Below are positions 1-27,781 of a stretch of 28,582 nt of DNA, piece after piece. Each line of letters begins with the position of its first letter. Position 1 is the first letter of the stretch. The DNA is from Anthoceros angustus (taxonomy: Eukaryota > Plantae > Anthocerotophyta), in the NCBI GenBank assembly GCA_010909165.1, contig VJWM01000374.1, positions 1-28,582 on the forward strand, in the 5' to 3' direction. Made by a program: the position numbers and the translations under genes. A model generated the notes under the pieces. That model did no database searches, was not told the DNA's origin, and saw only the letters and a program-made list of their open reading frames with translations.

Positions 1-384
1 CCGTCCTTAGTCTCCTCCTGGGGTTGTCTCTCCCACCACCCCAACCGCCCTCCAGGGTATACTACCGGACCCCGGCTCCTTCATCCTCGCCAGCCTCCGG
101 CCCCGACTCCCATCAGCCTCCGCCCCACGGCACTGACCCCTTAGTCCGGGCATCACCGGCGAGTGGCTCACCACGGTAGTCCGGCAGACTCACTGGTAGG
201 CTGGTCACCCCACCGTGGTAGGTTGACCCCTGTGAGGGTGGGCTTCCTCCTGCCTCCTCCGCGCCACCTTCTACCTTTGGCGCCACGCCTTCCTCGACTC
301 TCGATTCCTGAGTCCATTTCACCGATGGCCTCATCAAACGGAGGCCTCCGCTGCACCTCAGCTCCTTTCTCATCATCATGAGGA

Positions 385-524
385 TGTCTTTCTTAGCACA
401 TAGCGGTATGGCATCTTTCTCTCGTGTATGTGTCATCCTATCCTACACCTTGCTCATATGCTTATTCAGGGACAATCATGCAAGCTTTATTTCACTCAAG
501 TGAGGTTAGTTCACCCCAAATGGC
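385..524 (-). repeat. Terminal repeat B2 (3' end of element 1)
   Basis: 400-524 (ATAGCGGTATGGCAT...TTCACCCCAAATGGC) is a direct repeat of 1032-1158; 385-399 carries the TGTC terminus. Confidence 0.85.
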
Positions 525-1020
525 AAAACGCGTTGATAATCCTCCCAAGCACTCTCATGAAATGCGAAGCCAGCAATCGCTTTCGTTGAGACCTTAGGGC
601 AACCTCGCCGACACTCCTCTATCCTGTGCTCACACTCGCCACCCCAGCGGAGTCAGAGCTGCCCTCTCTCGAGGCAAACATCAGCAATCCGCCGCGCACT
701 GCGGATTGCTGCCCCTTAAAACCACCACCGCTTTCGGCGAACGCGAATCGATCACGGGTAAGGCGGACGTGGCGCCCGCCCAATCCTTGACGACACGTGA
801 CGGCCAGATCACCGAACCCCGACCGACGCCGTGACCGTGCCGCGATCATCAACCCCGCCAAGCCTGCGGTGACCGCGATCACTGGCGCTTCATGCTCTTA
901 TGCGAACATGCCGTGGCTCCACCTATGACTATACACATGCTGCTCCACATGCCATCATGCCTATCACCACACACATGCATCCTTTCTCCTACGCCCATAT
1001 CCACAGCGATATGCCATGAC
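525..1020 (-). repeat. LTR-like repeat A2 of element 1
   Basis: Direct repeat of 9185-9672. It is near-identical over the CTTCATGCTCTTATGCGAACATG...GATATGCC block (~888-1015 vs ~9541-9658) and more indel-rich elsewhere. Confidence 0.85.
679..721 (-). promoter_or_regulatory. Putative promoter in repeat A: TATA-like TTTTAA ~26-31 nt upstream of a conserved GGATTGCTGATG motif, with a 10-bp inverted repeat
   Basis: AGCAATCCGC (683-692) / GCGGATTGCT (701-710) form a perfect stem. The equivalent site in element 2 has TATAAA at 24269-24274 and GGATTGTTGATG at 24234-24245. The transcription start is inferred. Confidence 0.5.
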
Positions 1021-1031
1021 GGCGCGCGAAG

Positions 1032-1158
1032 ATAGCGGTATGGCATTTCTCTCGTGTATGTGTCATCCTATCCTACACCTTGCTCATATGCGCTTTATTC
1101 GGACAATCATGCAAGCTTTATTTCACCCCAAGTGAGGTTAGGTTCACCCCAAAATAGC
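1032..1158 (-). repeat. Internal repeat B1 of element 1
   Basis: Direct repeat of 400-524, lying between the extra ORF stop (1209) and A2. Confidence 0.85.
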
Positions 1159-1208
1159 CCCCAAAGTCGGCCACAATTGATCTTTGGTTGTGTGACGCTT
1201 TGGACACT

Positions 1209-2045
1209 TCAAATACCATAAAAGCGCCGGTAAAACCGTCTGAACATACCGTCACGCAGCTGAGGCTCTGAGGGTTTGTCATGTTGTAACCCTCCTGTTG
1301 CCAATAGGGCCGCCACTCGCCGCTCCTCGGGATCAAAATATTCATCAACCTGTGCCTTGCCTAATCGCTGCCGCTCCCTAGCGCGATGTCGAGCCAATAG
1401 TTCTTCCTCCTCATCACTGTCCAGCTCGGTCTTGACCCTGGGAAGTTGTGGCCCATTTAATCCGTTTACATAATATTGCTTTTCAAGTACCTGCCCGCAG
1501 AAATCCCCACATTGCTATTAAGGAGATACCAACATTCAGACGTTGGTTCGTCCCACTCTAACACTCCCGTCCTCAAACATGCAAACACCACAGCAGAAAG
1601 CCACAGGAGGTAGGGATGGCATCTGGCCCGCTCTTTCCGATGGGTATGAGCCATACCTTTAAAATTGCGCCGTCTGGCTTCTCTTCTTGCCGATACATGA
1701 GGAAGCCTTCCTTGGGCGATGATCGAAAACTTGGTGCATAAGCGGATGATGCTCCGGTTGCGAAAGGCATACAATAAGCGGGTCCACCACAGTTTTGTTC
1801 ATGCCCGACTGCGAGTTCAAAAGGTCCTTGTGATCATAGGAAAATTCTCCACCGGACATGTCTCATGATGCGATTCCACATATAACAAGAGGCTTGCAAT
1901 TCGAGAAAGGTTTCCGGCGTTCGAGCTTGCGGTTGATACTTGCGTACCAGCAGGTTGCGCCACTTGTCCTCCACGGTCGGTGCAGAAATTGAGGCTGCTG
2001 TGAGCCATCCTGCGGCGAGTCACACATGTGGACCTCCAAATCCAT
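1209..2045 (-). CDS. Conserved extra ORF of unknown function in the env-like position (~280 aa, frameshifted)
   Basis: Stitched from ORF-track fragments 1863-2045, 1817-2095, 1659-1859, 1573-1770, 1466-1774 and 1209-1397. It aligns with 24747-25578 of element 2 (EDKW..LVRKY, ETFLELQA.LLYVESHHETC, YDH[KR]DL, TGVLEWDE, NVGI, YVNG, EEEL.ARHRA, MFRRFYRRFYGI*). The start codon is uncertain. Confidence 0.7.
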
Positions 2046-2644
2046 GTCAACCCCGACAACGCCGCCCTACACTTGCACTTGTGTTTGGCCCTCAATGCTT
2101 CATAATCAAACTAGGGCAACTCGCCCCACCTCCGACTTCCGTAGCGTGATGGCGTCCGTCGTGGATGCCCCCACGACTCCGATTTCTCAGCAGTGCAATT
2201 GGTGCTGTACAACCCTACATCACCTCCTCAGATGCCCCTTTCTTAAGGCACCGTGATTACCACCAATCGGTTCAAGTGCACAAGTACACACCCGATTGTC
2301 AGAGGGCGCCTCTATGGCCTCCTCCGCGCCAGCAAAGAGGTATGCCCGTGCGGGCCTCCGTGGCCCGAGCACCTCAGCCAACACCGCACCTCCTTCACCC
2401 TACGTGCTGCCGCCTCGTGCACGCCGGTACAAGGCTGCTGGTTAATGTGAGACCATCTTGTATTCCTCGTGGCGTCTGCCACTCCTTCGCTTCCAAACCC
2501 CGCGCCCGCTATCGTGGCGTGTCGGTGCTTGTGTGTAACACACATGGGTTTTCATGCCATTTTGCCCTATGGCGCGTGTCGGCTTCGCGGAGGCGGTTTT
2601 AGGCGAGCCATTGCCGCCCCCAGCCATTTCTTGATCGCTGAACA

Positions 2645-2799: not shown

Positions 2800-3860
2800 T
2801 CACAGTGTCTAGGTTGGGCAAATGACATGGTGCTAAGTGGCGCATGTGCTCCTTGCACCGTCGCCCGTCCTGGCCCTCCAGCTCAATCACCCCTTGTTCA
2901 CCCACACTTACCACTCGTAAGATTAATCGTCCGGTGCTTACATCCAACGTACTCGACGGTCGGTGTTGTAGATACACAAAGTCCCCTTCTTCGAATTTTC
3001 TTGCTTTGGGCTTCCATGATCCTCCGCGTGGCGTGCCGGAGTTGGTCTCGGTGTTGTCACGCTAGTTGTCCATAGCCATTGGCATCACCCGCTGAAAAAG
3101 CTTCGCTCGCTCTTGCAACTCCGTGAGGCACTGCTCCGGACACTGTGCCCAATCCACCGGTCGAGAATAAGTGTCCGCCACAATATTTGGCATCACGGCA
3201 TTCCGTCCGAACATGATGTAGTACGGACTGAAGTTGCCCAGCGCTGCCTGTACGCTGATCCTGTACCCCAATGCCACGTATGGCAGTAACTCATCCCAAC
3301 ACTCGGGTTCGATCTCAGTGCAATACTTGCGGAGAGAGTCCTTGAAAGTTTGCACCAACCGCTCGGCCAACCCGTCAGCTTGAGGGTGGTCTCGGGAGGT
3401 GCGGCGATGATCTATCGACTTGATCCAACGGTGTTTGAAATTCACCTCGGCTTCGTTGCCTTGGTCCGTCAACACTTAGCGGCTCCCATATCGGCTACAC
3501 ACTGCGAAATGTCCTTGCAGTATACTTGGAGCTTCTAATCGGCAGAAAGGCCAATTCCACCCATTTCGAGAAGTGCTCTATCATCAACATGCAATGCTTG
3601 TTACCTTGCCTAGTTGTGGGTAGTTCGGGCATCAAATCGACAGACCACCTGAAAAACAATCCTCTGATGGGCAGCGAGTGCAACACCACGTCCTGGCTGT
3701 TGAACCTTGCTTTCACCGCATCACAGGCAGCGCATCGCGATACCACCTGCTCCACATCAGCATACATGCCAGACCAAAAGTATGCGGTTTTCAGCATGTG
3801 ATGCGTTCGCTTCACACCAAAGTGTCAGCATCTTGTGCACCTTGGTCACCAATGGTTTCC
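2800..3860 (-). CDS. pol: Retroviral-type DDE integrase (HHCC zinc domain, core, C-terminal part; frameshifted)
   Basis: HFGVKRTHHMLKTAYFWSGMYADVEQVVSRCAACD, WSVDLM, EHFSKWVE, LTDQGNE, HPQADGLAERLVQTFK, WDELLPYVALGYR, SPYYIMFGR. Confidence 0.95.
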
Positions 3861-4129
3861 TTTCTTCCACGGGTGGCACCTCTTTGTTGATCCCTCGATC
3901 GACTATGAGCACCTTACCATCCTTGTACGCATAGCGAGCAATTCTTCAGCTTTTGGAGAGATACTTCATCCAAATCAGGCACATATCCGTCTCTCAGTGA
4001 ATGGCGTGTTCGAGCTTCCATATGTCTCGAGTCCCTTCCGATGGTTCTGTCGTTCTCTTCTATAGCCATCATGCGAGCACATCTTGGCCTATTCGAGTCT
4101 TGTCGTGATGGTGTCGCCGCCCACACGGG

Positions 4130-4540
4130 TTCTGCGAGCCCATCCGCATTGAGATGCACTTTTCCTGCCCGATGCACAATCTGCATATCATATTCTGACA
4201 ACAACAAGGCCCATCTGGCGAGCTTCCCGCTCAGCTTCATGTTAGTCATTAGCCAGTGCAGGGGTTGATGGTCTGTGACCAGCTGAAAGCTTCGACCAAA
4301 TAGTACACTCTAAAGTGCAGGACCGCCCACACGGCAGCGAGACATTCTCCTTCATAAGACGAGTAGTTGGCCTCTGCGGTGTTGTTCGATCTACTTGCAT
4401 ATGCCACGACCCTCTCTCTTCCTTCCTCATCCGCCTGTGCGAGCACGGCCCCTATGCCTACTGCACTCCAGTCCGTATACAAAACGAAGGGCCTTTCGAA
4501 GTTGGGCCTTCTAAGCATTGGCCTTTCTGCCAGCTGCTCT
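4130..4540 (-). CDS. pol: RNase H domain (Ty3/gypsy type)
   Basis: PFVLYTDWSAVGIGAVLAQ, VVAYASRS, NYSSYEGECLAAVWAVLHFRVY, KLARWALLLSEYDMQIVHRAGKVHLNADGL. Confidence 0.95.
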
Positions 4541-4599
4541 TTTAGCTCCTGCCATGCTTGCTCTGCTCCTGCCCCCAGTGCCAATGGACATCTTTTTTA

Positions 4600-5260
4600 A
4601 GCAACTCATACAACGGCTTGCAGGTGCCGCTCATGTTTCTTATGAACCGGCGATAATAGTTCACTAGCCCTGTGAATGCCCTCGTGGCCACATCCTTGGG
4701 TCTAGGCATGAGATTCCTTGCACCTTGGGTGTGGCAACACTCCTCGGTACAATTTGTGCCCCAAGTAGTCGATCTCTCGGTAGCAAATTTGCATTTTCTT
4801 GGATGGGCTTTCGGCGGTTGTGTTTGTAACATCTCCAAGTGCTCAAGGTGTTCTTCCAAACTATCGCTGAACACCAGGATGTCATCGATGTAGCACTTGA
4901 CAAACGCCAGTCCTTGCAGCTCCAAGTCTGCTACCCGTTGAAAATATATGGACGCGTTCTTTAATCCGAATGGCATGGTCTCCCATTCCCATAACTGCTC
5001 CTTGCCCCAAAATGCCGTCTTACACCTGTCTTTCTCCTCAATCACAATCTGGTTGAATCCAGACCGAAAGTCAAGTGTGGTGAAGTATTTGGCTTCGCCG
5101 ATGGCGTCAAAGATCTCGTCAGGGGTAGGCATGGGATACCGTTCCATGGGCGTTATCTCATTCAGGGCTCGATAATCCCCACACATTCTCCTGTCCTTCC
5201 ATTCCCCGTGTTCATCCTTTTTGAGCGGAAGCACAGTGGCTGCAGCATATTGCGAGGTTG
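4600..5260 (-). CDS. pol: Reverse transcriptase (Ty3/gypsy type)
   Basis: ORF 4542-5318: RMCGDYRALN, YFTTLDFRSGFNQI, KTAF, MPFGLKNA, catalytic YIDD (4881-4892), FTGLVNYYRRFI. Confidence 0.97.
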
Positions 5261-5677
5261 ACTTCCTGATCGACCAGCCTCTGCCAGCTCCTGGCACCGT
5301 TTGTCCACGATGTCCCACTCCATGGGGCTCAACTTATGTCTTCGTCGGAACACGGTTCATCGGTGGTGGTGGTGATCTTGAACTTGATGCGATCATATCG
5401 CCCCAATTCGGCCCAACTGAACGCAAAGGTACCTCGGTTTCTGAGTAGCATTTCCGAATCTTTTGCTGCTCAGCCGGTTGCAGCTCTTCACATATTTGCC
5501 ACTCATCGTCCGGACTTGCGTGGTTCTCTTCCGGTAGCAAAGGGGCAGCCACTGCTGTATGAACGGCTCGCTCTGGCTTCTCGCGTGAGGATCAGATCTA
5601 TCTTTGTCGTCACATATGAGCAGACGCTCCCTGCTGTCCTTTTGACACATGGCCAGCTGTATGGCCAACCCTGTAGT

Positions 5678-6564
5678 CAGCAACCATTGCATACAAGTGA
5701 TATCAAAGGCTTGCCCGATCAATCTGCACCGGAAAGATTGACACGCGGTGCCTGCACCATATCCCATGGCCCGCTCTCGTTCGGTCACCGTGGGCTCCCC
5801 AACTTCATTTCCCTCGCTGTCGCACCATGCCTCCTCCTCCTTTCCTGAACGCATAGGATTGGATGGTCTTGACAAGCGTGGGCCAGGCCCTTCTTGGCTT
5901 TCCAACCACATTCACCGGGTAATGAGGCAGTTTGTCCCTCTTACGCACTTGTTGTGAACATCGCCCAGGCTCCAGGATGTCATCTACACAACGCTGTTCT
6001 GGTACCGTCAACTGCCGGTGATGCCTCAGGTTGGTCACACTACCCACATTGGTCCAGAAACTTCGTACCCGGTGTGCATATGAGCCGGTTTGCACAGCAT
6101 CGACAATGAACTCTTCTCCCAGCCAACCTCTGAGTTGCGCATATTGTCTTCTCACACACTCGCGCTTGTCAAAAGCACCACACACATTTTCAAGCAGCAG
6201 GGGGTTGGTCTTACACTTCACCGCAGGATCGAATGACCTCCGCCAGTTCCATGCCATTGCAGGCCACGCCCAGCTTGGGAGAAGGTCTTGCACTCCCATC
6301 CTGCGATCAACATGTCTCCGTACCAATGACCCCAGGCGCCGGCTTACCCACGGTCGGATGTCCGCGGGCCTTTGCTCACGCGACCTTTAATGGCTTCCCT
6401 GCTCAACAAAGTGGGGTTCTCCTTTGTAGCGAATGATCCTGGCCTTAGCCACCGCGCGTCCTTTCATCCAGCTCGACACACGTGTACTTCACGGTGAATA
6501 CCACTTCTTAGTGCGCTTCCAACCACTGCGATCCCGTCGAGCACAGTTCCATCAAGTGAATGCC
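5678..6564 (-). CDS. C5 cytosine DNA methyltransferase domain, DNMT3-like, embedded in pol between protease and RT (frameshifted)
   Basis: Motifs in canonical order: I GIHLMELC..G (~6564-6530), II VKYTCVELDE, III ADIR, IV DMLIAGWECKTFSQAG (Cys at 6290-6292), VI LLLENV (6183-6191), VIII DAVQTGSYAHRVRSFWTN, IX EPTVTERERAMGY, X RCRLIGQAFDITCMQWLL. Motifs VIII-X resemble DNMT3 (DAKEVSAAHRARYFWGN; TEMERVFGF; RQRLLGRSWSVPVIRHLF). Confidence 0.88.
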
Positions 6565-6849
6565 TCGTCCATCCGCTGCCCATTGAATCACCTTGTTGTT
6601 GATTCGCAGCCTAGCCGGGTTCAAGGCCGGCATCTTCGGCAGGCTCTTCTCCGGACATAAGCGGGTCGCCGGCATTAGAGGTCCCTCGTCGGTGTCTTCG
6701 CATCACCGCCCTGCTGTGGAGTTCTTTTGATACACAGGCGGGCACTTACCTCACGACCCTCACCGTGACTCTTCCCTCATTAATTCCTCGGTCTCTTCCC
6801 AAACTTGGCTCTATGGCGCTTCCCTCTGCGTGTCGACCACCGCGATGTC

Positions 6850-7240
6850 TTTGCTGGTTCCTCGGCTCTTTTCATGCTAAGTGGAATCCTGGCCATGTGC
6901 GAGAAATCCCCATCTCTCCACCGAGGTCGGTAGAATGCCACTGAATGTAGTGGATCCACCCCCATCGCCGGTCCATGCGTGGCGTCAGCTCCGAGTAGCA
7001 CATCATAGTTGCTGGCACTTGATACCAGGCAATGAACCTCAATGACCGAAGCATCCTTGGTGCCTGGTTTGAACTCTATGCGGATGGGGTCTCGAGTGAT
7101 CCCCATTACTTGTTCTTTGGTGCGCCCGGCGTAGTGATCGCACCTCAGGGGCTTCAACTTTGTCCCCATACGGTGGAGTGCCTTACACTTTCGGGCACCA
7201 AGCAACTTGGATCCGCACTTTTATGTCTACCGGCACATTC
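6850..7240 (-). CDS. pol: Retropepsin-like aspartic protease (frameshifted)
   Basis: The C-terminal hydrophobic-Gly motif NYDVLLG is in ORF 6780-7205. A degenerate active-site region (VD..ADP) lies near 7215-7235. Position between gag and RT fits. Confidence 0.65.
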
Positions 7241-7699
7241 GAGGGCGAACCCATTCCGTGACACGGTTGTCCACCTTAGCGACTCCCCTTTGCCTCACCG
7301 GTGGCTTCGGATGTTCACCACACAAGCTAGTGAGCCCGGACACCACCTCGACTCCGGCATATGCTTTCTTCATCCAATCCTGCATTGCCGACCTGAATGT
7401 TTGTGGCTTGACTCCCAGCTCGCGCAAGCTGACCATGGGCACATCCAACGCTTTGTCCAACAACTCTATGTCCGGCGACTTCCTTTCTGGGGGTTTGAAG
7501 ACTTCGTGATCTTCCAGTTGTCTAAAGGACGCGGGCATTTTGAGTTGATTCCTAGCCCCGGCCCCCTTTCTCTTGATACCCTCTCCCATGTCAAGGTGAT
7601 TTTTCATACCGGTGTTTACCCCCATGGTCATTAGTGCGTACACCTCCTGATCTGAATCGTACTCTTCACAAGTGGCATTCGCGACTCCTGGTGTGCTGG

Positions 7700-8760
7700 C
7701 ATTCATGGCCAACTGCTCCTGGAGGCGATGCACCTCACTAAGCAGTGCCTTCCGAGTATAGTTCATTGATGATTTCATCTTATCACCCTGCCGATCCCCA
7801 ACTCCTTTGGGCTTGAGTTGGGTGACCTTGCCAAGCCGTGTGGCCCATTACAGCCTGAGTCACGGTTCCTTCTCCTTCGCTCCACCACTCGATACCACTT
7901 TCGGATGCTGCATGCGCACCTCCACCGGAACACTTCATCATGGCCTTGGCATTCACGCCTTTATTGTGCGTTCCCTAATAGAGCCTCTCGGTTATGCTCC
8001 CTTGTCCATTGAGCGGTCCTCCCATGCGCCTTGTGGGCATTCGCAGCATGCTGATGCCCTTTGACGAGATTGTGCTCTTCCCAATATGCACTAGTCACGG
8101 CATCCCCTTTCATGACCCTCTCTGCCATTTCATAGGCCTGATCCAGCTCATAATCCGCACCATGCATCATGTGCAGAAAGTTGGCAATCACTCTTCTCTC
8201 TTCCCGGGAGGCGGCTATGTAGATTTGGGCGGCTTCCCGCATCGTCTTTACGCGAGTGTCCTTTACCAATTGCCTCAATCTTAGATACGCCGACCTGAGT
8301 GGTTCATTGGGCTTGATGACGAATCTCGACAACTCCTGGATTTTCTCTATGGAGGACACTGGGAACATTTCCGCGAACTTGTTGAACATCTCATCCACCA
8401 AAAACGTAATGGCGGCCTTGCGTCTGCTGGATGAGCGTCCCTCTTAGTCTCCTTTAGCGTCCTTTTGGCTCACATGCACCGTGCCAAGGGACCGTGCATC
8501 TTGAGAATAATCAGTCCTTACAATCAGCATGGAGTGCTTCTCGGCCAAGAAGTGCTCATTTTCCTCAAGGCCATCTCGGAGTGAACTCCGATTTGTACTT
8601 GAGGACCATCATCAATCGTCCCAGATTTCTCTTGAAGTCAATAGCGACATCTGTAGTCGTGAAGACGTCATTTTACTAGGTGCTGGCTCATATTCCATCC
8701 TGATCTCTCCACCGCTGTCTTCAAATGCGATGGAGCGAATGGGGCTTCTACTCCACTCAA
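7700..8760 (-). CDS. gag: gag-like capsid protein (frameshifted; boundaries approximate)
   Basis: ORF 7961-8401 (KIQELSRFVIKPNEPLRSAYLRLRQLV...YELDQAYEMAERV) has the retrotransposon Gag pattern L..F.Q..NE....Y..R...L and lies 5' of the protease. Confidence 0.7.
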
Positions 8761-9181
8761 ACTGACCGGCGCTCCTGCGACCCAAGGAATGTTGGGCTGG
8801 GGCTCTGGCGCTTCACCGGGGTGCTTTCGTTTTATCCAACACGTAGAATACCATCACCGTGTCAATCTCGCCCCCTGCGTGACACTATATGGCATTCGTC
8901 CAAAGTTAGTGTTGGTCCCGCCGTTAGTCGATCCGCCGGCCAGCCAATTTATCCACCACTTCTTCCTCCCGGCCTTTACGGGTAAGAAGGTTCTATCTCG
9001 CCAAGAGGCCCCGCTAACTCTGATGGAGCGGCAGCATAAAACAGCGAATAATCCACGATGCTCTGCAAAGCCCACCACCGCTTGGGCTTGGCATCCGTGG
9101 GCCCCCACGGCTCGTCGATGGTGATAAGGCGCTCATGGTCTCACTATGGGTGGTCGTATGTCGGGGACTCGGGATTGCTAA

Positions 9182-9672
9182 TGTAAAACGCGGTCGGTAA
9201 TCCTCCCAAGCACTCTCATAAAATGCGGCTTGCGTATCGCTTTCGTGAGACCTTGGGCCTCGCCGACACTCCTCTATCCCAAGCTCACACTGCCACCCCA
9301 ACGGGAGCTGTATGGCTGCCCTCTCTACTGGGCAAACATCAGCAATCCGCCTCGCATCGCCAGTTCGCCGCCCTCAAAACACCTACACCTTTCGGGCGCA
9401 TCGATCACGGTGACGGACGTAGCCTCTATCCCGGTTGACACCGTGACCGCGCCGCGATCACCGAACCGACCGGCGTGGCCGTGACTGCGTGATCCACGAA
9501 CCCGGTAGCGCCCGTGACCGTACCCGCGATTACCGCTGCGCTTCATGCTCTTATGCGAACATGCCGTGGCTCCACCTATGACTATTCACATGCTGCTCCA
9601 CATGCCATCACCACACACATGCATCCTTTCTCTTACGCCCATATCCACAGCGATATGCCAGTTGCCATGACA
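9182..9672 (-). repeat. LTR-like repeat A1 (5' end of element 1)
   Basis: Direct repeat of 525-1020, bounded by TG (9182) and GACA (9672). No copy of repeat B lies on either side. Confidence 0.85.
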
Positions 9673-10200
9673 AGGACCCAATGTCCTCCTCTTGGCCAAA
9701 CGCAAGATCTCATTGTTGGCCTTCAAAATTCTTTTGTGGAGGTGGGCCCCCAAGCTATGATATTGCATTTGGAGATCATCAATCTCCGTGGGCCACTCTC
9801 CATCTTCACACCTACCTTTGGCGTCCTTGAGGTGGCTTCAATTCCCCCACCTTGACATGGAGGGTCACATTCTCTCCCTGCTGTTTGGCTAGCCAATTTT
9901 ACTGAAGGGCATAATCAGCCCAAACCTTCGTCCTTACTTACCAGCATTCTATGTACCACTTTCTTGTGGTACTCCTCTTCCTGGGACCTTTTCCTTCCAA
10001 GTCCTCTATTAGTTGAGCAAGCCCTTCCCTCTCCGCTTGCCAAGCATCTTTCCGCTCCGGCTCCGGTCTGAGTCTCTTGGGGTAGGTCGCCTTAGCTCGA
10101 AAAGGAAGTTGTGGCGCCCAAAGCGCACTTTGCACCTTTGGATGGTCCGCCACTGGCCACACAACCCTAGATTTTGTGCATCATTCACAAAATCCTAATC
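9673..10200 (-). pseudogene. Host sequence interrupted by element 1 (continues at 384 leftwards); probable decayed retroelement accessory ORF
   Basis: Removing element 1 and one AGGA joins ...KANNEILRLAKRRTLGP to HDDEKGAEVQRRPPFDEAIGEMDSG... in frame. There is weak resemblance to ORFs at 28123-28563. Confidence 0.4.
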
Positions 10201-12875: not shown

Positions 12876-13305
12876 CAAGTCTTGATGGGAGTAGCAGCCC
12901 AATTCTTCCCAATTGCTATGTGCAACCAAGTCTCGATGGCAATAGCAGCATAATTCTCCCCAATTCTTTTTGGAATTTGTGCTATGTGGAGCCAAGTCTC
13001 GATGGAAGTAACTCAATTCTTCCCAATTCTTTCCGGAATTTGTGCTATGTGGAGTCAAGTCTCGATGGAAGACTCAATTCTTCCCAATTCTTTGGAAGTT
13101 GTGCTATGTGCAACCAAGTCTCGATGGTAGTAGCAGCACAATTCTCCCCAATTCTTTCTAGAATTTGTGCTATGTGCAACCAAGTCTCGATGGCAATAGC
13201 AGCACAATTCTCCCCAATTCTTTCTGGAATTTGTGCTATGTGGAGTCAAGTCTCGATGGAAGTAGCAGCTCAATTCTTCCCAATTCTTTTGGAATTTGTG
13301 CTATG
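12876..13305. repeat. Minisatellite, 7 copies of a ~50-66-bp unit
   Basis: Unit (C/T)CAAGTCTCGATGG..TAGCAGC.CAATTCT.CCCAATTCTTT..GGAATTTGTGCTATGTG starts near 12876, 12926, 12992, 13055, 13114, 13180 and 13246. Confidence 0.9.
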
Positions 13306-13461
13306 TGTGTGTCTGTGGATATAATTAGTCTAATATGTATGTGGCTGTGTGCTAGGTTTTCTAGTGTGGGCGGCAAGGATTACACAATCCTGTTGGTCTC
13401 TTGCTGTTGTTTGCCACAAAATCCAGCATTGGAAGGACACACTCTTGTGGACAGACTCATC

Positions 13462-16400
13462 ATGCCAGGAGGTGGCCGTAAGCGTGCTCGACCAATGGTT
13501 CAGTATGCTTTTGAGAAATGTAATTGTAAACTGTAAGGGCAAAGGACGGGGAATCAAGTCCGTATTCATGAGCATACGGAATATATCGAGGCGGAGGGAG
13601 GCGCAAGTTCGGAAGAAACCCGCATTACAAGTGAAGACTCACCGTGACGGCAAGCGTATATGACGTGAGTTTCTAACCCCTTTGGTTAAGTATTTGAGAT
13701 GTATATTGAGTTTCTAACCACTATTTCGTGATACATTCAAGGTATATCATATTTAATATTAATATATATATTTATATTTATTTAGTATATGCATGCCTTT
13801 TAAATGTGCATGATGTGTCATTGATGCATGATGGTTTCGTAAGTTAAACTGTATGGTATGTAGTTTGTACTTATGATGATTATTTTTGTATAGTTGGCGT
13901 AACTTCCTATAGAGGACCATGTTAGCACTCTTGATCCCGATGATCGATGATGAACGCACTGTGGACACATGTCTCTGCAGTAGGAAAAATTTGGGTGGAA
14001 AGGAGAGTCACGTGGACCTTTCCTTGAACACCCTTACCACGAGGGAGAGGATGCAAACTCTCATGATGCTTGTGTTATACAAGCGTCTTCTCAAAGGTGT
14101 ATATCCCAAGGAGTGGGGAATGTGGGAGGAGGGGCCATTCCTATTAACAAACCATTTCCATATTGGGGTCGGATAGTGAAGGAGGCAACAAATCCAATAA
14201 TGGGGTTGGGTTTGTTTGCCTTGGAAAAATAAGTGTTAGTAGAAAGGCGGCGTTCCATTATTTGTGTTTGGTGGTCCCATGTATACACGTAGTTTAACAA
14301 GATTGGAGTATGTGAGATTGCGAGTTTCAAAAAATATGCCTTAACTTTCAAGATGTAGGCGTAAGAAGCTTACGTCACCTATAGTGTACTTGGATGGGCA
14401 TGTGGCATATGGGAATGTGGCGGGTTACATTAATAGCGATAAACAAGGTAAGCTCTAGGAGGAAGACGATGGGCATGAGCTATTGCATCATAGCCACATG
14501 ATGTGGGTGTGCACTTGGGCGGTGGACCATTGAAGCGGTGAGGAGTTGTTTGTTGAGTACAATTGGTTTGACCCAAATTATGCGATAGCAAGAATAAAGG
14601 CTAAAGGCGTGAGTATGCACATACTAAAGAGTATGTGCAAAGAGAGTGGAAGAAGATGAAGGCAAAGTTAATGCATGAAGACAAAGTGCGGATGCGGAGG
14701 AGTATGTAGATCTGCAGAATATGCAAAAGGGAATGGGAAAAGATGAAGGCAAAGTTGATGAAAGAGGATGTAGATTTAGAGTAGTATTTGCATGACATGT
14801 CTTTGAATGATGTGAATATTAGTTTTTCCTCATCGTGTTTGAAGTTTGAACATAGTTTATCTAGGTGATTGATATCCTTTAGAGATCATGGTCAAGCTAG
14901 CCTATAATAAAGTATTATTTATTTTATTTTATTTTATTTTATTTTCATAACATGTTATGTATGTTTGCTCAAAAATTCTAGGTTGAAGGGGAAAAATTCA
15001 TGGTGAATCCATGCATGAGGAAGAAAACGAATACATTCACCCTCATGAACAAGTGGCTATAGAGATGGTGGAGGCACTTGGTGGAGTAGCATTGCCATTT
15101 GACGAGGAAGAGGTAAATTCTTTGCCTAAGGAATTGAAGAGAATGCATACACCGCAACCACATCTTTATGGACCGGAGCCAAAACAAATTTGTCACATTT
15201 ACCTTATTATTGCTTAACGTCCGGAGGAGGCATTGTTGGTCGGATGCATCTGTGAATACTATGTTGGAATTAATAGGAGCTTAGGACTCCCGACAACAAG
15301 TTGCCCAAGAATAGAGCGAGATAAGAAAACTATTGAAGGATTTGGCCTGTCTTATAAATCTATACATGCTTGTCCAAATGATCCTATTATTTTCATGGCG
15401 AGCTGCTCCGCTAATGCTGCAAGTGTGGGGCAAATAGATACGAATACAAAGGGCAAAAAATACGTGAAGGTGTTGCGTTATTTCCCATTAATTCCTAGGT
15501 TGAAGCAAATGTTTAGGTGCAAGAAGCTAGCTAGTATGATGTCTTGGCATGCAACATTTAAGTCTAGTGATGGGATCATGAATACCATCGACGCCCAAGC
15601 GTGGAATATGTGGACCAAACATTTCCAGTTTGCTATGGAGACGCAATATTCGCTACTCGATGGGATTAACCCGTTTGGACACCAAGTTCTCAATATTCCA
15701 TTTGGCTACTTGTCAATTATAACTTGTTTCCATGGATGTCCATACGCAATGGACATATATTATTATCAATGATTATTCGGTCCGAAGCAAGTGAAAATGC
15801 GACATTTATTTCCGACCGCTTATTGAAGAGTTGAAGATATTGTGGGAAGAAGGCATAATAGTGGACGATATTTCACCTGGAGATGGGAATGCTCAAAAAC
15901 AATTTAGATTAAAAGCCTTATTGATGTGGACTATGCACGACTACCGTGATATACGGTCACTTCAAAGCTTCAAACCAAAGGGAAGCGCATGTCCAAAATG
16001 TTGGGATAAACTTGAAGCACGCAGATCACCACACACTAAAAAATGACGATGATAAAAATTCTAGAATGCACTTGCCAGAGGAACACAAGTTTAGAGTGGA
16101 AGAGAAGGACACATTTGATGGACGTGCTGTGACTGCAAGTGTTCTTCCGAGCGATGAACCTACAGCAACAGTTATCGTAAGAGAGAGTTTTTTACGGAAA
16201 ACCGCAACTAAGGCGACTGTTAGGCCTTGGGGTGTCACAAGCAATGAACCTTCAATTTTTTGGGAGCTTCCATATTGGGAGGTAGGTGTCGATCCCGTTT
16301 TTTTATCCTTCACTTTAATATATTATAAAATGATTATGCTTTTAGAACTTTGTAGCAATCGAATGCTTACAATTATCATCAATATGCATATGATGGCTGC

Positions 16401-18682
16401 AGTGTTGCTAATTAGACACTTGTTTGATATCATGCACATTGGAAAGAACGTTAGTGAACAAATTATGAGGCACATTTGTGGGGAGTTTGAAACCCTATGA
16501 GTCGAGAGATCTCGAACTATCAAATACCAAGGTGAATGGTGGCCCAAGGAGGCCCCAACCTAAACCCAAGCCCAAGGGTAGGGCTAGGGCCATGGGCCAT
16601 GGGCCATGGGCCATGGCAAGCCCCAAGCCAAGTATGGGCCTAGGCCTAGGCAATCAAGGAAAAGGAAGAGAGGACAAGATGATGCATTGATGAAGGAACG
16701 CGGTGCATACGGACTCCAAAGACCTTGGGTTCTTGGACATGGCACTAACTATTCTTATCCTAAAGCATTGGAGAAATTGAAGAGAAGGGTTTGCAACATC
16801 CGTATGCCCGGGTATGGGTCCAACTTGAAACGTTGTTTTAAGAAAGGGACACGAGAGACAATTTCACAAGTCCCATGATCATCATCATTTGTTATGTGAC
16901 ATATGGCCAATTGCCTTGAGAGGGTTGATACATCCACATGTGCATAAGGCTATATGTGATCTCAACTAATGCGTTGGCTTACCGCAAAAGAAATTGTGAA
17001 GGATGAGATTCTCGCTATGAAGGTCAAAATTGCGAGGTGATGTGCATTTTGAGAGAGAGTTTCCTACAACATTTCGACAAGCCGTCCATGTCATTATTCA
17101 TCCGTGCGAGGTTGAATTATGTGGGCCCACACGCTATCGTTGGATGTATTTTCTTGAACATATGAAAGTGCTAAAGAACCTTGTACGACAAAAAGCTCGA
17201 AGGAAGGAAGCATGGCTTTAGGATATCTAGCACAAGAGACAATGTTTTACTCTTGAATTCTTTGGAAATATCCATAATGCAGCTCCACGGATGTGGACAA
17301 TGAAAGAAGATGTTACTCAAAGTGGGAGTTGTTACAAGGATATGGAAAGATAAAGCGCCGATGTGGAAAGGAGTCAAGTGAGGAAAGTGATATTAGAGAA
17401 CTCGGAGTGGACTAAGCAATGGAAAGAAGTATATGATGACATCAAGATCGCCTTTTGTGGAGTGGTTAATCGATGAGGTGGAAGCATCTAAAAGGGAACG
17501 CATTAGAAATATATGGAAAGGAGGTGGTTGCACTTGTAAGAGGGCCATTTGAATCATGCGTTCTTATAGCATGATGTGGGCATATGGACATCATATCTTG
17601 GATCTTGAGGAAACAAACTTGTGATAGCATCATAACACAACTATATACATTTCTATGTATTGAAAACAGGTGACCGAACCCATTGCAGTAGCCTATGTTG
17701 GAACAAAGGAGAGGATTTATGAAGTTGATTTTGGAGTTACTACAAATATAAATGTGCTCAAGGTAAAGTGGTTCCACACCGGAATGAGGATAGGAGAGAT
17801 GACTCCACCGGTATGGTCATGTTGAATCCAAACAAAACGTTATCTCAAGAAAAGTCGAAAGACGAACCATTCGTTATGGTATCTCCGAAATTGGAGCAGA
17901 GCAAAATACCCAAAAATCTTGGAAACTTGTAGGTACAACATGTAGTAGAATGTGACGATTTTGATGGAAGACATGTCCATGAAGTGCTGGAATACAAGGA
18001 TGACATGGAAGACGAGGATATCGATAGAAGAAGTGGAAGATGATCATGAGCATATCGATGGAACTAGATATGTAGTGGAAGATAACGATGAAATGGAAGA
18101 TGAGGATATCGATGGAATATACGTTGTTGAAGATGACATGGAAGATGAAGATATTGATGGAAGACATGTAATCAAGACGTCGACATAGAAGATGAGGATA
18201 TTGATGAAAGACATGTAGTCGAAGATGAAGATGACATGGAAGATGAAGGAAGATGAAGAGGAAGATGATGGTGATAGTGATGATGAGGATGACAAGGAAG
18301 ATGCGGATGATGAGGAAGACGAGGATGCGGTAGAGAGGATATCGATGAAGAGACTACGGAAGATGAGGAGGGTAGCGAAAATGAAAAGGACATGGAATCA
18401 AAAGACGAGGACGCCGACAAGGAAGAAGAGGAAGATGAGGACAACAAGGAAGAAGAGGAAGATGTGGACGAAAGGGAAGATGAAGAGGAAAGTAAAGATG
18501 AGGATGATAAGGAAGATGAGGATGAAAGCAAAGATGAGGATGAAAGAAAAGATGAGGATGACAAGGAAGATGAGGATGAAAGCAAAGACGAGGATGACAA
18601 GGAAGATGAGGATGAAAGCAAAGATGAGGATGAAAGCAAAGACGAGGATGACAATAAAAAGATGAGGACAACAAATGAATGA
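13462..18682 (+). pseudogene. CACTA TnpD-like DDE transposase (Tnp2/Transposase_21, DUF4218- and DUF4216-like regions), spliced, frameshifted
   Basis: YKSIHACPND, VKVLRYFPLIPRLKQMF, LKALLMWTMHD, ACPKC, FWELPYWE, LLIRHLFDIMHIGKN, GYGSNL, EVELCGP.RYRWMYF.E.MKVLKNLVRQKAR. Likely GT-AG introns lie at 13665-13912, ending at 14981, and at ~16282-16402. The N-terminal start and acidic C-terminus are inferred. Confidence 0.88.
17950..18680 (+). repeat. Asp/Glu-rich low-complexity coding-like repeat (GAAGATGAGGATGA... units)
   Basis: ORF 18392-18682 is mostly D/E/K. Purine-rich tandem units follow the DUF4216-like region. Confidence 0.85.
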
Positions 18683-19129: not shown

Positions 19130-19737
19130 TGAAAGGAAAGGGTACATAGACGTGGGACAAGGAAACAATGCAAAGACATACTTATCCTTGAAGTAATCTC
19201 CGTAGATATTCTGAAGGACTGGCCTTGAGCTTTCTGGCACATGCTCCTGCCCTTTGTTAGTAAGAAATGTAATGAGAGCATGAATTCCCTAGAGAAGTTT
19301 AATCACGAAGTAAATTCGGCCGGTGAGACGAGTGACTACTGCAGTATCCAGAATCTGACCAAGGCTAACTAGACGATTAGCAAACTATATGAAGGCATTA
19401 GAATTTCATATGGCCCACAAAAGGCGGAACCACCACCTCCCCATCAAAATCTAAACCCCCAATCTATTCACTAATATACGCTCATTCAAATACCCAGGAA
19501 GCCCGAACGTATGGGAACTCGAACGTATACGATGAGGCGGGACTCGAACTATGAGCCCCTTTTTGAACATACTCCCAATTGATTTGTGCACCTTAAAATG
19601 CCTTTGTCACTGTTGATCTAATTTCCTTGAGTACTTTTGCCAATGGTAGCAGCATGTAACCATGCCAAGCTATAGCTTGTCTAGCCTTTCTCTGGACAAA
19701 CAAAGATAATCAACCTTCCAAGATGAAACGTTAACCC
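19130..19737. repeat. ~600-bp module duplicated at 20560-21147, with a partial third copy at ~18855-19055
   Basis: Shared blocks include CAATGCAAAGACATACTTATCCTTGAAGTAATC, CCGGTGAGACGAGTGACTAC and GCCAAGCTATAGCTTGTCTAGCCTTTCTCTGGA. Confidence 0.9.
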
Positions 19738-19927
19738 CAACCTGTTTTAGTGAAAACCGCTCCCAAAATCACCCCTTGTGCCCCAATCTATTCAATACCA
19801 ATTGCAAGTAGCCTCCCTCGCATCAAACATCCCTTGTTGGCTCTATGCAAGGAAAAGGTAGCATCGCCTAGAAGAGACGAGCTCCAATATTGTGCAAGAG
19901 AATCGCCGGTTGCTCGACAAATATGAC

Positions 19928-23211: not shown

Positions 23212-23264
23212 GATTGGGGGATTTGCAAAAGGGGTTTTGTAAAACACCCCTCTCCCTAGTAGTG

Positions 23265-23979: not shown

Positions 23980-24746
23980 TGTCGCGCCACAGCCGCATAG
24001 CAGGCATGGACATACATGTTATGTCATCAAAAAGTTTCAACCACTTCCTACGGGACTCCGTGACCCACACCCTTAACTATATGAGCTGTCACTACCTCCG
24101 TATCACAACGCTTGTCAATGGCAAAAATCCACTCCGTTTGTAATGGTTCTCCTCCTATACACACCCATTTACCGAATCACACACAAGATCTGTAAAACGC
24201 TTGGGATGCATGCATTTGTTCTCTTGAATCAGACATCAACAATCCGCTCCCAATGACGGATTGTTGGATTTATAGCCTACGCCGCGCGATCTTAATCACC
24301 GGCCCAAGAAGGCTGTGACCACGCCCGCACGCGCCGGAAGATCTTCGCCGCTGAGCCTTAATTACGCTTGTCCGTATTCTGATCGTATGGCTCATGTAGC
24401 CATGATGCCATCCTACCTCTATACTCATGCCATGCATCACGCCATCACATTCACAGTATTCGCATGCAGTCATGATTCATGCACCTCTTATCCCTACGCA
24501 CTTATATTGGACACACACACGTCATCACACCCAAACCCTACCTGCCTATCCATACCTCTACATGCCATGATACCGCCCGCCGCATGCATGGACGACATGT
24601 TATGTCATCAAAAGTTTCAACCACTTCCTCGGGACTCGTGACCCACACCCTTAACTACATGAGTTGTCACTTCACTGACGCCACAATGGCCCCGCCAAAG
24701 TTGCTGCTCAAGAACTGGTTGCGCTGTGTAGGCACCACTTTGGCAC

Positions 24747-25578
24747 TTATATGCCATAGAATCGTCGATAAAATCTCCGGAACATGCCCTAAGCTCGTGG
24801 CTCGACGGTTTGTCATGCTCCATTCTTCCGTATAACAACGCCACACGCCCGATCTTCCGGGTCAAAATACTCATCCACTGCGCTTTGCCCAACCGCACGC
24901 CTTTGCTCGATGTCGGGCCATGAGCTCCTCTTCTTCATCATCACCGCTGGGTTTCACTCTAGGCGTGCGCTCAAACCCATTCACATAATCTTGCGATGCA
25001 CCGAGCCCTAAGAAAATCCCCACATTGTCATTGACTGCATACCAAGATTCCAAAGTGGCCTCATCCCATTCCAACACTCCTGTGCAAGGCAAGCAAACAC
25101 CCTATAAAAAGCTCGTGGGTAACCAATGGCAAAACGCCCGCTTTCTCTCTATGTAAATGACTTAGCCACACTTTCGGACTTCTCGTCAATCACCGGCTTC
25201 TCCTTGTGCACATCGTGAACCCTTCGGCCAATGATCAAACACCGATGCATGACAGATGATGTTCCAATTTTCTAATGCCCCTCACAAGAACTCAGTCCAT
25301 ACGGCTTTGCCTGCTCATGCCCCTCGCTCGCCACCTCAAAAAGATCCCGATGATCATAAGGAAAACTTTCAATGTTGCAGGTCTCATGATGTGATTCTAC
25401 ATACAGCAAAAATGCTTGTAACTCCAGAAATGTCTCGGTCGTTCTCGGCTTGCCGGTGATATTTCCTTACCAAAGGCGTCTTCCATTTGTCTTCCCATGG
25501 TCTGTCTGAAAACTGTGGAACACTAGTGCTCATTCTGCGAAAACACGACTTGCAAGTGTGGTCCGCTTCCATATCCAT
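24747..25578 (-). pseudogene. Second copy of the conserved extra ORF (frameshifted)
   Basis: MDMEADHTCKSC...PWEDKWKTPLVRKY, ETFLELQAFLLYVESHHETCNIESFPYDHRDL, TGVLEWDEATLESWYAVNDNVGI, EEEELMARHRAK, ending MFRRFYRRFYGI*. Confidence 0.7.
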
Positions 25579-26410
25579 GTTAGCACTGTTAAGCCCAATG
25601 GGAATCCTTCACTTGATACTCTCACAATTGGAGGACGGATACCTTCAGTTGTTGGTCGAACAATCAAATGGATTGATTTGATTTTGAGATGACTGCTCAT
25701 TCCGACTCAAGCGAAAGTGTCAAGCTTGCCAATCAACACATGCCCGATTGAAATGAATCCCAACTTTGTCTCACGGCAAGTGGCTTGCCGCTTATGCAAA
25801 GAGATCATTATGCACGCTCCTTTGCTCGTGCCCGGATGCTTGGCGCCGCAAACACCCTAGCACTTGCTCTTCACGTCTCGCTTCCGTGGTATCTCCTCAC
25901 CGCTCTCACTTGAGTCGCAGGGTCCCTATCCACAACCTACAATACATATGCACCGCAACAACTGGATGATCACCGGCGCTCCAACTACATGATGCTCCAT
26001 GCTTTATTGCTCCTTCCCGCGCAATAATCGCTGTTGATGAACCGAATCAGCCGCCTTCCTTATTCCTCCACACGCGTGCCGCAATTGGCCTCCTCCCTGA
26101 CATGCACTGTGACAATTCACTGTCGCTTACCTTCCATGCACCGCCCACGATGATCGATGCACTCAACACCACCAATTTCCCCAAGCAAATCGCCGACCTT
26201 CTCCAAAGAACAATCCTCCTCCCCGCTAGTTCTTTGTTTACACTGTACTTCTCGCCTTGCCGCTACATCAGACGCCTCACACAACCCGGTATGTATTAAA
26301 TAAGTAACGGGCTTTTATAGGCCTACCTTCTTATTGACGCCTTCGACACCCACACCGTGAGTGCGTGCTTTACTTAGCCCCCATTTCCTTCGCCCTAACT
26401 TTTCCATTAT

Positions 26411-26546
26411 ACACTTGTGACAAATTCTCCTTCTCCGAATTGCCTTCAATGGTACGAAGACAAAAGACATGATGTCCTTGGTTGCATTGATCACATAATA
26501 GCATCGCTCAGATCGCTGATTTTGACCATGTATTCGCATGGCAGTC
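26411..26546 (-). pseudogene. PHD finger of element 2
   Basis: MLLCDQCNQGHHVFCL in one frame, then LKAI....ICHKC in the next. Confidence 0.75.
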
Positions 26547-26599
26547 AACAGTGGCTTCCATGCGCGTTGTATCAAGATCTGGCATGGGGCCGATGTCGA

Positions 26600-27260
26600 T
26601 GTGTTCCTTTGCATCGGCTACCATCTTGCCCTTCCAACTCGATGACCCCTTGCTCACCAACGCTCACCACTGCAAAATTAACTCCTGCGGCTCACGTCCA
26701 AAGTGCCGAAGGACGATGTTGAAGATACAAGTCACCTACTGAACTTCCGCCTTTGGCTTCCATGATCCTCCTCGTGAATGCGCCTCACCGATCTCTTGTT
26801 GCGATAGCGATTGTCCATTGCCATGGGTATCACTCGCTGTAACAACTTGGCCCTATTTCGTAACCTCGAGCAACATTCATTCACATTTTGTGTCCAATCC
26901 ATCGTTTGGAATACGTGTCACCACTATGTTGGGTAACACAAGATTCCCGCCAAACATGATATAATAAGGAGGTTGCTGTGGCCGCTCAGACATGATTCTC
27001 AGGCCCAAGGCAACATACGGTAGCAACTCATCCCAACAATTAGGCTCGACTGCGGCAAGATTTAAGAGCATCCTTGAAAGTTTGCACCAGCCTTTCGCCA
27101 AACCGTCATCCCTCGAGGATGGTCCCGGATGTGCGCCCTCGCGATCTATCAAACTCCGATCTAACAACGCTTGGAACTCACCGAATTCATTTCCTTGATC
27201 GCCAACATCTCCGCATGCCTTCCATACCCGGCCAAAACACAGCTGTAGGAAGCCCGTGCG
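26600..27260 (-). pseudogene. Integrase core and C-terminus of element 2
   Basis: DQGNEF, CWDELLPYVALG, PPYYIMFG, ELEGQDGSRCKEH; collinear with 2800-3500. Confidence 0.9.
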
Positions 27261-27781
27261 TGAGCGTGAAGTCCTCGAAGCCTCCTGCCTCACGCCCCCG
27301 AGTTCTCCGGGCCTGCCTACCGCTTTAACGTTTGCTCACGCCGATTTGAGCAAGGGTCCCTGCGCTCGTCCCCGCACACCACCACACGTTAGGGTCGTCA
27401 CGTGACTGGACCGCCTCTCGAGTCGTGCTTGCTGCTGACTCGGGACTCACGTTAGCAAGAAGACGCACAAGGGTCCTGCAAGGAAACGCGGGTGATCAAC
27501 ACAAGAGAAAGATACTTTACTAGAGCAACTTCGCCCCTCTTATACTACGCCCAAGGTCATGCCTTTATTACACTCCTATTCGAGCGGGTGGCACTCGGTG
27601 CCCCAATCACCGCCTACCATCTTCACGCCCCCTATCTCCGCTGGCCGGGCGGTGGGCCTGGGAATGCCCTTGGTTCCGCGCCGATGACCCCACCTTGCTC
27701 TGCTGCGGGCGCACCCAATCGGATGATCCGCGAGGCGGGACCCTTCCCTTCCCGAGACCTCGCGTTAGTCACGGTCCGACA
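27261..27781 (-). repeat. Possible LTR of another retroelement truncating element 2
   Basis: Minus strand starts TGTCGGACC (27781), with a purine-rich GGAGAGGAGGATGGTGG ~10 nt upstream and a TATAAG box near 27539-27544. No second copy is in the window and the left boundary is unresolved. Confidence 0.4.

What the first reader, a model, noticed from the sequence alone, without database searches (positions are those of the whole stretch)
5678..6564. Retrotransposon-borne DNMT3-like cytosine methyltransferase inside pol, with a GWEC catalytic loop
Seen: C5-MTase motifs I-IV, VI and VIII-X occur in order between protease and RT. The catalytic Cys, the ENV Glu and the RxR are all present, but motif IV reads AGWEC rather than the usual GxPC. 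Established: DNMT capture by retrotransposons, including Ty3/gypsy in charophyte algae, has been reported (de Mendoza et al. 2018), so the phenomenon itself is not new. The Pro-to-Glu motif IV and the combination with PHD, extra ORF and split repeats may be. Inference: the enzyme could be packaged in particles and methylate nascent cDNA or affect host methylation.
Basis: partly seen in the sequence, partly recalled or inferred. Interest (0 to 1): 0.82.

Follow-up and report, generated by a model that had tools for sequence, protein, structure and literature searches.

The report
Retrotransposon methyltransferase with Glu-Cys active site
A Gypsy-type jumping gene carries a DNMT3-like DNA methyltransferase domain between its protease and reverse transcriptase, a design already described in an alga; its odd glutamate before the catalytic cysteine is shared by about half of its relatives, so the enzyme is likely still active and would methylate the element's own new DNA copies.

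Summary
The domain is real: a DNMT3-like methyltransferase (5669-6585, minus strand) between protease and RT of a Gypsy element with A-coding-B-A-B repeats, the layout published for KnitGypsy-Dnmt3 of Klebsormidium. The capture and split repeats are known, and this scan found such elements before on other DNA, including this genome. GWEC is no quirk of this copy: Glu precedes the catalytic Cys in 115 of 223 related domains (Pro in 99). The state changes 19-20 times on the tree (6 forced by strong branches). Glu domains keep the Cys, the ENV Glu and both motif VIII arginines (115 of 115) and are under purifying selection. Glu co-evolves with Ser/Thr at the motif V position, as in active DNMT5, but mainly in the other clade (DNMT after RNase H, named hosts chlorophytes), not in this copy's clade. 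I found no description of the Glu-Cys form; the paper's key supplementary alignment was unreadable. The copy's 34 breaks are mostly deletions with no stop codon, likely long-read error. Activity, host and fixation in true sister copies are untested. Verdict: new variant of a known kind.

The parts
5669..6585 (-). DNMT3-like C5 cytosine methyltransferase domain within pol; at least 9 frame breaks, no in-frame stop on the aligned path
   Evidence: family profile hits DNMT3A/B/C first in PDB; fold of an intact GWEC relative matches DNMT3A/B/C
6287..6307 (-). motif IV, IAGWECK, with Glu in place of the usual Pro before the catalytic Cys
   Evidence: sequence; same GWEC in intact relatives
9180..9660 (-). 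repeat A1, 5' end of the element
   Evidence: 79% to A2, 41 mismatches and 71 gap columns
7227..8500 (-). gag-like region, broken into several frames
   Evidence: weak match to the N-terminal part of relatives P0076/P0238 (E about 1e-6) and loci L019, L031; no Pfam hit
6990..7220 (-). aspartic protease, C-terminal half readable; catalytic motif not readable
   Evidence: assignment by likeness to the relatives' protease region
4133..5500 (-). reverse transcriptase and RNase H
   Evidence: PF00078, PF17919, PF17917; read-through alignment
2860..3880 (-). integrase (H2C2 finger and core)
   Evidence: PF17921 E 7e-12, weak PF00665
2656..2753 (-). PHD finger remnant after the integrase; the first CxxC is not readable
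   Evidence: profile score 82 against a maximum of 38 in 50 shuffles; clearer in the sister copy
1146..2063 (-). unidentified coding block of about 300 codons downstream of the PHD
   Evidence: shared with the sister copy (645 identical of 977 columns); mismatches periodic in threes, p 0.0005; no hit
1032..1153 (-). repeat B1
519..1016 (-). repeat A2
400..520 (-). repeat B2, 3' end of the element
   Evidence: 1 mismatch and 9 gap columns against B1 in 126 columns
24678..27305 (-). partial, diverged sister element: integrase, PHD and the same downstream block; no DNMT part in the window
   Evidence: 66-68% DNA identity

Best explanation
This is a Gypsy retrotransposon of the KnitGypsy-Dnmt3 kind whose pol carries a DNMT3-like domain with a family-wide Glu-Cys motif IV; that domain is likely an active cytosine methyltransferase that would be packaged with Pol and would methylate the element's own cDNA before insertion. 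Shown: domain, position, repeats, family distribution, conservation of catalytic residues, purifying selection on Glu-type domains. Inferred: packaging (from the position in pol), activity of the Glu form (from conservation and from active enzymes that lack the Pro), CG as target (from DNMT3 kinship and the SymbioDIRS assays), and the benefit (new copies arrive already marked like host DNA). The residue before the Cys lines the SAM pocket, so Glu probably retunes cofactor binding rather than removing catalysis. The breaks in this copy are probably sequencing error, so the real copy may be young and nearly intact.
For: Cys in 223 of 223 domains; in Glu domains the motif VI Glu and both motif VIII Arg are kept in 115 of 115, as in Pro domains (99, 98 and 98 of 99). 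dN/dS 0.03-0.33 in 22 unsaturated Glu pairs, against 0.11-0.20 in 6 of 7 Pro pairs. PDB profile ranking DNMT3A/B/C E 3e-17 to 5e-12, DRM 4e-10, M.HhaI 3e-8; fold match TMq about 0.7 to DNMT3. DNMT and RT distances agree (Mantel r 0.8, 59 rows), so the domain travels with the element. Active enzymes without the Pro: DNMT5 (Ser, with Thr at the L100 site; 10.1101/2021.10.01.462825 section 17) and Pmt1 (PSCQ; PMC3526270 passages). Two SymbioDIRS-Dnmt3 domains methylate CG in yeast (PMC5890265). Error rather than decay: 0 stops with 9 breaks in the DNMT and 0 stops with 25 breaks (21 net deletions) in RT-integrase, against 75 stops and 8 frameshifts in 30 related loci.
Against: No assay of any Glu-Cys enzyme is known to me; KnitGypsy-Dnmt3 gave no methylation in yeast, and its motif IV is unknown to me. 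A paper predicts that a DRM3 with Cys but no Pro is inactive (PMC2965745). All Glu pairs used for dN/dS come from the other clade and from about four families; none from this copy's clade. The Ser/Thr partner is missing in 15 of 17 Glu members of this copy's clade. This copy has Lys after the Cys (3 of 115 Glu members do) and an unreadable motif V. The predicted model has pLDDT under 50 at residues 97-111, from the Cys onward, so it says nothing on Glu geometry. The decay control is biased against frameshifted copies by the way the loci were found and ranked.
Confidence: 0.55

Rival explanations
1. The Glu-Cys form is catalytically weak or dead and is kept as a DNA-binding or base-flipping module that coats or protects the cDNA.
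For: Pro is described as invariant; no activity of KnitGypsy-Dnmt3 in yeast; on the midpoint-rooted tree the fitted rate Glu-to-Pro is 0.34 and Pro-to-Glu sits at the lower bound, which could mean that Pro is the better state.
Against: All catalytic residues are invariant in 115 Glu domains, which pseudo-enzymes such as DRM3 and Dnmt3L do not show; SAM-pocket partners co-evolve with Glu.
Confidence: 0.2
2. The enzyme is active but works after integration, on host chromatin around the insertion site or on rival elements, tethered through the integrase PHD finger.
For: A PHD follows the integrase in this copy, its sister and many relatives.
Against: Some intact relatives with the same GWEC domain lack a PHD (P0012, P0013); a few molecules per particle suit cDNA better than host chromatin (inference); K. 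nitens has an ordinary plant-like methylome.
Confidence: 0.15
3. On the state of this copy: it is a truly decayed relic and the breaks are real small deletions.
For: Repeats A1 and A2 differ at 41 positions besides gaps; motif V and part of the IX-X linker are short by several codons; homopolymer runs are not depleted.
Against: No stop codon in about 1,200 aligned codons; B1 and B2 differ by 1 substitution and 9 gap columns; decayed relatives collect stops, not frameshifts.
Confidence: 0.25
4. The Glu weakens SAM binding so far that the enzyme mainly deaminates cytosine and mutates DNA.
For: Polar residues at these two sites are said to weaken SAM binding in DNMT5; deamination by C5-methyltransferases short of SAM is recalled, not from a call.
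Against: Glu-type elements are not more CpG-depleted than Pro-type ones (median C3pG1 0.56 in 25 loci against 0.46 in 17; confounded by host and near-copies); motif I Gly is kept in 102 of 102 Glu domains that cover it.
Confidence: 0.05

Closest known systems
KnitGypsy-Dnmt3 of Klebsormidium nitens (de Mendoza et al. 2018, PMC5890265; read parts 1, 3 and 4 of 7, passages, and a word search of 3 supplementary files; figures and the main supplementary PDF not seen)
   Same: Gypsy domain set, Dnmt3-like domain inside pol, DIRS-like repeat arrangement (A-coding-B-A-B is spelled out there for SymbioDIRS-Dnmt3 and called the same for KnitGypsy-Dnmt3), purifying selection on the domain.
   Different: The text mentions no PHD (0 occurrences), no Glu-Cys motif and no extra downstream coding block; it covers one species. 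Its motif IV and the place of the domain in pol are in figures I could not see, so the Glu form may already be on show there.
SymbioDIRS-Dnmt3 of Symbiodinium (same paper)
   Same: Dnmt3-type domain in the pol of an element with split repeats; shown to methylate CG in yeast.
   Different: DIRS elements with a tyrosine recombinase; this element has a retroviral-type integrase with an H2C2 finger.
EpiLTRs of Cymbomonas and Euglena (bioRxiv 10.64898/2026.05.21.726589; passages read, supplements closed)
   Same: LTR elements with a cytosine methyltransferase and a chromatin reader.
   Different: Their DNMT is sister to DNMT4, they carry a chromodomain and an adenine methyltransferase; the paper calls them distinct from streptophyte Gypsy-DNMT3.
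DNMT5 of Cryptococcus (10.1101/2021.10.01.462825, section 17 and passages) and Pmt1 of fission yeast (PMC3526270, passages)
   Same: Active C5 methyltransferases without the motif IV Pro; DNMT5 also has Thr where M.HhaI has L100.
   Different: Both have Ser, not Glu; DNMT5 is gated by an SNF2 ATPase and Pmt1 acts on tRNA; neither is DNMT3-like or carried by a transposon.

Membership tests
Gypsy-Dnmt3 (KnitGypsy-Dnmt3 kind) | Gypsy domain order PR-RT-RH-INT | tested here: met
   protease catalytic motif not readable in this copy
Gypsy-Dnmt3 (KnitGypsy-Dnmt3 kind) | Unrearranged Dnmt3-like domain inside pol | tested here: met
   motifs I to X in order; DNMT3 ranks above DRM and bacterial enzymes
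Gypsy-Dnmt3 (KnitGypsy-Dnmt3 kind) | DIRS-like split direct repeats, A-coding-B-A-B | tested here: met
   the same layout in related loci L019 and L031
Gypsy-Dnmt3 (KnitGypsy-Dnmt3 kind) | Same clade as the K. nitens sequences | not tested
   no protein named as Klebsormidium among the hits whose names were shown; the clade holds Closterium and Marchantia proteins
Gypsy-Dnmt3 (KnitGypsy-Dnmt3 kind) | Purifying selection on the domain across copies | tested here: inconclusive
   met in relatives; no second DNMT-bearing copy of this element was available
DNMT3 family | Branches inside Dnmt3 in a tree with host DNMTs | not tested
C5 cytosine methyltransferases (PF00145) | Catalytic Cys, motif VI Glu, motif VIII RxR | tested here: met
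   window; 115 of 115 Glu-type relatives
C5 cytosine methyltransferases (PF00145) | Pro-Cys dipeptide in motif IV | tested here: not met
   Glu-Cys here and in 115 of 223 relatives; known active exceptions have Ser
C5 cytosine methyltransferases (PF00145) | Methyl transfer from SAM to cytosine C5 | not testable with these tools
   needs an assay
DIRS/YR retrotransposons | Tyrosine recombinase as the integrating enzyme | tested here: not met
   retroviral-type integrase present; no recombinase hit among the pieces scanned, though the downstream block is unidentified
EpiLTR | Adenine methyltransferase and chromodomain beside the DNMT | tested here: not met
   PHD instead of chromodomain; the region after the PHD does not match the relatives' C-terminal profile (score 35, shuffles 34-49)

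The most novel reading that the evidence does not exclude
A large, old family of green-lineage Gypsy elements runs on a second active-site design of DNMT3: Glu-Cys in motif IV, paired with Ser/Thr in motif V and Arg/Lys in motif X. It was the family's ancestral state, reverted to Pro-Cys many times, and makes SAM binding switchable as in DNMT5, so that the enzyme fires only on the element's own cDNA inside the particle. This would explain why the isolated KnitGypsy-Dnmt3 domain was silent in yeast.
Probability: 0.25. Interest if true: 0.75.

Novelty: new variant of a known kind. Interest (0 to 1): 0.5.

Why it matters
The Pro-Cys dipeptide is used as a rule of thumb to call C5 methyltransferases alive or dead. 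A family in which half the members have Glu-Cys under purifying selection, with co-evolving cofactor-pocket residues, is a natural experiment on that rule and supplies intact Pro and Glu sister enzymes for a direct test. It also bears on an open point of the 2018 paper, whether Gypsy-borne Dnmt3 is active at all, and widens the family from one alga to Closterium, Marchantia and chlorophytes, with the domain at two different places in pol.

Tried and rejected
No whole genome is held for this window and no sequencing run was listed, so copy number, fixation of GWEC in sister copies, expression and read-level errors are untested; these blanks are not evidence. The in-window sister element has no DNMT part. 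The largest DNMT piece alone gave no PDB or Pfam hit. The idea that GWEC is a sequencing slip of this copy was rejected: intact relatives have it. A single origin of one state was rejected only in part: 19-20 changes, 6 forced by strong branches of a FastTree tree; no AU test was run. The independent-pairs test of covariation had 6 pairs and was not significant for any column shown (part of the output was cut). The three covarying columns were picked after a raw scan, so their p-values are not face value. A leaky stop after the DNMT, seen in six loci of the clade, was not found in this copy. No target-site duplication was evident; joining the flanks gives an open frame, which is weak evidence (one in three by chance). 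The downstream block found no relative. The host lineage could not be tested (atlas blank; nearest RT unnamed, 62%). CpG depletion does not separate Glu and Pro elements in a usable way. No complex prediction was run.

Full report
Observation. The minus strand holds one retrotransposon from about 9660 to 400. RT, RNase H and integrase pieces hit Pfam. Between the protease remnant and RT the C5-methyltransferase motifs lie in order over three frames. A frameshift-aware alignment to a profile of 30 relatives spans 6585-5669, scores 662 against 34-48 for 5 shuffles, and the read-through with X at breaks hits the family profile at E 8e-77. Motif IV reads IAGWECK. Pfam on the separate pieces is weak (none; E 0.31), but intact relatives pass the PF00145 cut-off.

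What the domain is. The largest piece found 7 relatives among 124 candidates, 38-48% identical; three of them read GWEC. A six-sequence profile (3 Glu, 3 Pro) ranks DNMT3A/B/C first in the PDB, then DRM, then M.HhaI. The predicted model of an intact GWEC domain (pLDDT 82.6) matches DNMT3 structures with TMq about 0.7. No tree with host DNMTs was made, so DNMT3-like rests on these rankings.

The family. The profile found 81 long proteins, 477 representatives at E up to 1e-30 of which 150 were listed, and 140 metagenome matches of which 80 were kept. Of 293 profile hits, 234 were near full length and 223 distinct. They form two groups: 34 relatives plus the window, with the DNMT before RT (support 99; named members Closterium and Marchantia polymorpha), and 189 mostly with the DNMT between RNase H and integrase and a PHD (named members Hariotina, Tetradesmus, and a Chrzof gene id that I recall as Chromochloris). 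One protein of the second group (P0004) has the domain before RT. An RT tree of the 59 rows that passed my filter splits the same way (11 and 48, support 98) and RT and DNMT distances correlate (r 0.8). The window's nearest RT is an unnamed protein at 62%. The host is not established here.

The Glu. Before the Cys, which is present in 223 of 223, stand Glu 115, Pro 99, Asp 4, Ser 4, Cys 1; proteins alone give Glu 90 and Pro 82 of 181 (the locus search pattern favoured these two residues). In the window's group it is 17 and 17. With the motif columns dropped the state changes 19 or 20 times, at least 6 forced by strong branches, against about 71 for shuffled labels. Glu domains keep motif VI Glu and both motif VIII Arg in 115 of 115. 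Among locus pairs over 60% identical, 22 unsaturated Glu pairs give dN/dS 0.03-0.33 (6 more are saturated) and 7 Pro pairs 0.11-0.20 with one at 0.93; the Glu pairs are few families, all from the other group.

Covariation. Glu goes with Ser/Thr 19 residues after the Cys (94 of 115 against 8 of 99 Pro) and with Arg/Lys after the motif X Gly (77 of 112 against 7 of 99). A Pagel-type test gives 49.9 and 42.9, above all 162 background columns (maximum 31.3, median 4.9). The columns were chosen after the raw scan, and the stricter independent-pairs test (6 pairs) was not significant. The link holds in the second group (92 of 98 Glu with Ser/Thr) but not in the window's group (15 of 17 Glu keep Leu). 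By offset, the first site is M.HhaI L100 (C81 plus 19); P80 and L100 are named as SAM-pocket residues that are Ser and Thr in active DNMT5 (10.1101/2021.10.01.462825, section 17). The second site is likely N304 of motif X, which lines the cofactor pocket (PMC3526304 passages; the mapping is from the recalled motif). Pmt1 is active with PSCQ (PMC3526270 passages). Against this, PMC2965745 (passages) treats the Pro as invariant and predicts a Cys without Pro to be inactive. On the midpoint-rooted tree the fitted Pro-to-Glu rate is at its lower bound and Glu-to-Pro is 0.34, which suggests Glu was ancestral; the root is not tested.

State of this copy. The DNMT path has 9 breaks (13 to 20 with cheaper penalties) and no stop; RT-integrase has 25 breaks, 21 of them net deletions, and no stop. 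Thirty of the 80 loci, aligned the same way, hold 75 stops and 8 frameshifts (biased against frameshifts by how they were found). The two B repeats differ by 1 substitution and 9 gap columns. This points to an error-rich long-read assembly, about 75% likely; no reads were available.

Surroundings. Repeats run A1 (9660-9180), coding, B1, A2, B2; loci L019 and L031 show the same and share GTCATG at the start of A. A PHD remnant follows the integrase, as in several relatives of the same group (P0232, L002, L009) but not all (P0012, P0013). A block at 2063-1146 is shared with a partial sister element at 27305-24678 and shows three-base periodicity of mismatches like the integrase control, unlike two repeat controls; it has no relative in any search tried.

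Mechanism. Most likely the domain is cut out of Gag-Pol, sits in the particle with RT and methylates the cDNA, probably at CG, so that new copies arrive marked. Position, conservation and selection are shown; packaging, activity, target and benefit are inferred. Rivals: a non-catalytic binding module (0.2), action on host chromatin through the PHD (0.15), a deaminase (0.05).

What is known. PMC5890265 (parts 1, 3, 4 of 7, passages, word search of 3 supplementary files) describes KnitGypsy-Dnmt3 with a Dnmt3 in pol and DIRS-like repeats, and found no activity in yeast, called inconclusive. Its main supplementary PDF, with the alignment of key residues, could not be read and may show the Glu. 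A 2026 preprint (passages) and PMC12344493 (passages) still place Gypsy-DNMT3 in streptophytes; PMC6338049 (passages) says such elements are absent from tracheophytes. Searches listed no description of a Glu-Cys motif, of the PHD-bearing form or of the chlorophyte group; most subscription papers are outside that library. The scan's own notes report such elements on other DNA of this genome and of others, and none holds the word GWEC; a sequence look-up found no look-alike.

Verdict. Observation confirmed; the element is a member of a known kind; the Glu-Cys active site, family-wide and co-evolving with SAM-pocket residues, is the new and testable part. Interest 0.5.

Noticed in passing
window 1146-2063 (-) and 24678-25595 (-): Unidentified coding block of about 300 codons behind the PHD, kept in two diverged elements, with no relative in Pfam, the protein collection, the atlas or the fetched loci.
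   Followed up: partly
P0048, P0099, P0109 and others of the RT-RH-DNMT-INT-PHD group, C-terminal part: The C-terminal profile of 108 proteins reads like an amino-methyltransferase fold (DPWAGTG, then VITSPP); strict patterns find both motifs in 3 and one motif in 12 of 108. These could be dual-methyltransferase elements distinct from EpiLTRs. Absent from the window.
   Followed up: partly
L001, L002, L003, L004, L009 (TAG) and L015 (TAA), end of the DNMT-bearing frame: A stop followed by CAA or CAG separates the DNMT from RT in the same frame, like a read-through signal. Not seen in the window copy; P0012 and P0013 read straight through.
   Followed up: partly
window 1016-1032 and 515-525; L019 14400-14898: A begins with (T)GTCATG and ends in CA like an LTR; the layout fits a two-LTR circle opened inside one LTR. 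No clear target-site duplication.
   Followed up: partly
P0004: DNMT lies before RT although its sequence groups with the after-RNase-H clade, so the domain moved at least twice.
   Followed up: no
window 15218-16878 (+): Broken CACTA-type transposase (PF02992 E 1.5e-13), followed by an acidic low-complexity frame at 18219-18682.
   Followed up: no
window 23198-24018 (-): Integrase fragments of another Gypsy element.
   Followed up: no
window 19923-22101, 12876-13330, 22374-23088, 19132-19735 with 20562-21148: Tandem arrays with 20/24-nt, 66-nt and 134-nt units, and a 600-nt duplication.
   Followed up: no
window 9672-9837 and 113-399 (-): The two flanks of the element join into one open frame of about 150 codons, possibly the interrupted gene of an older element.
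   Followed up: partly
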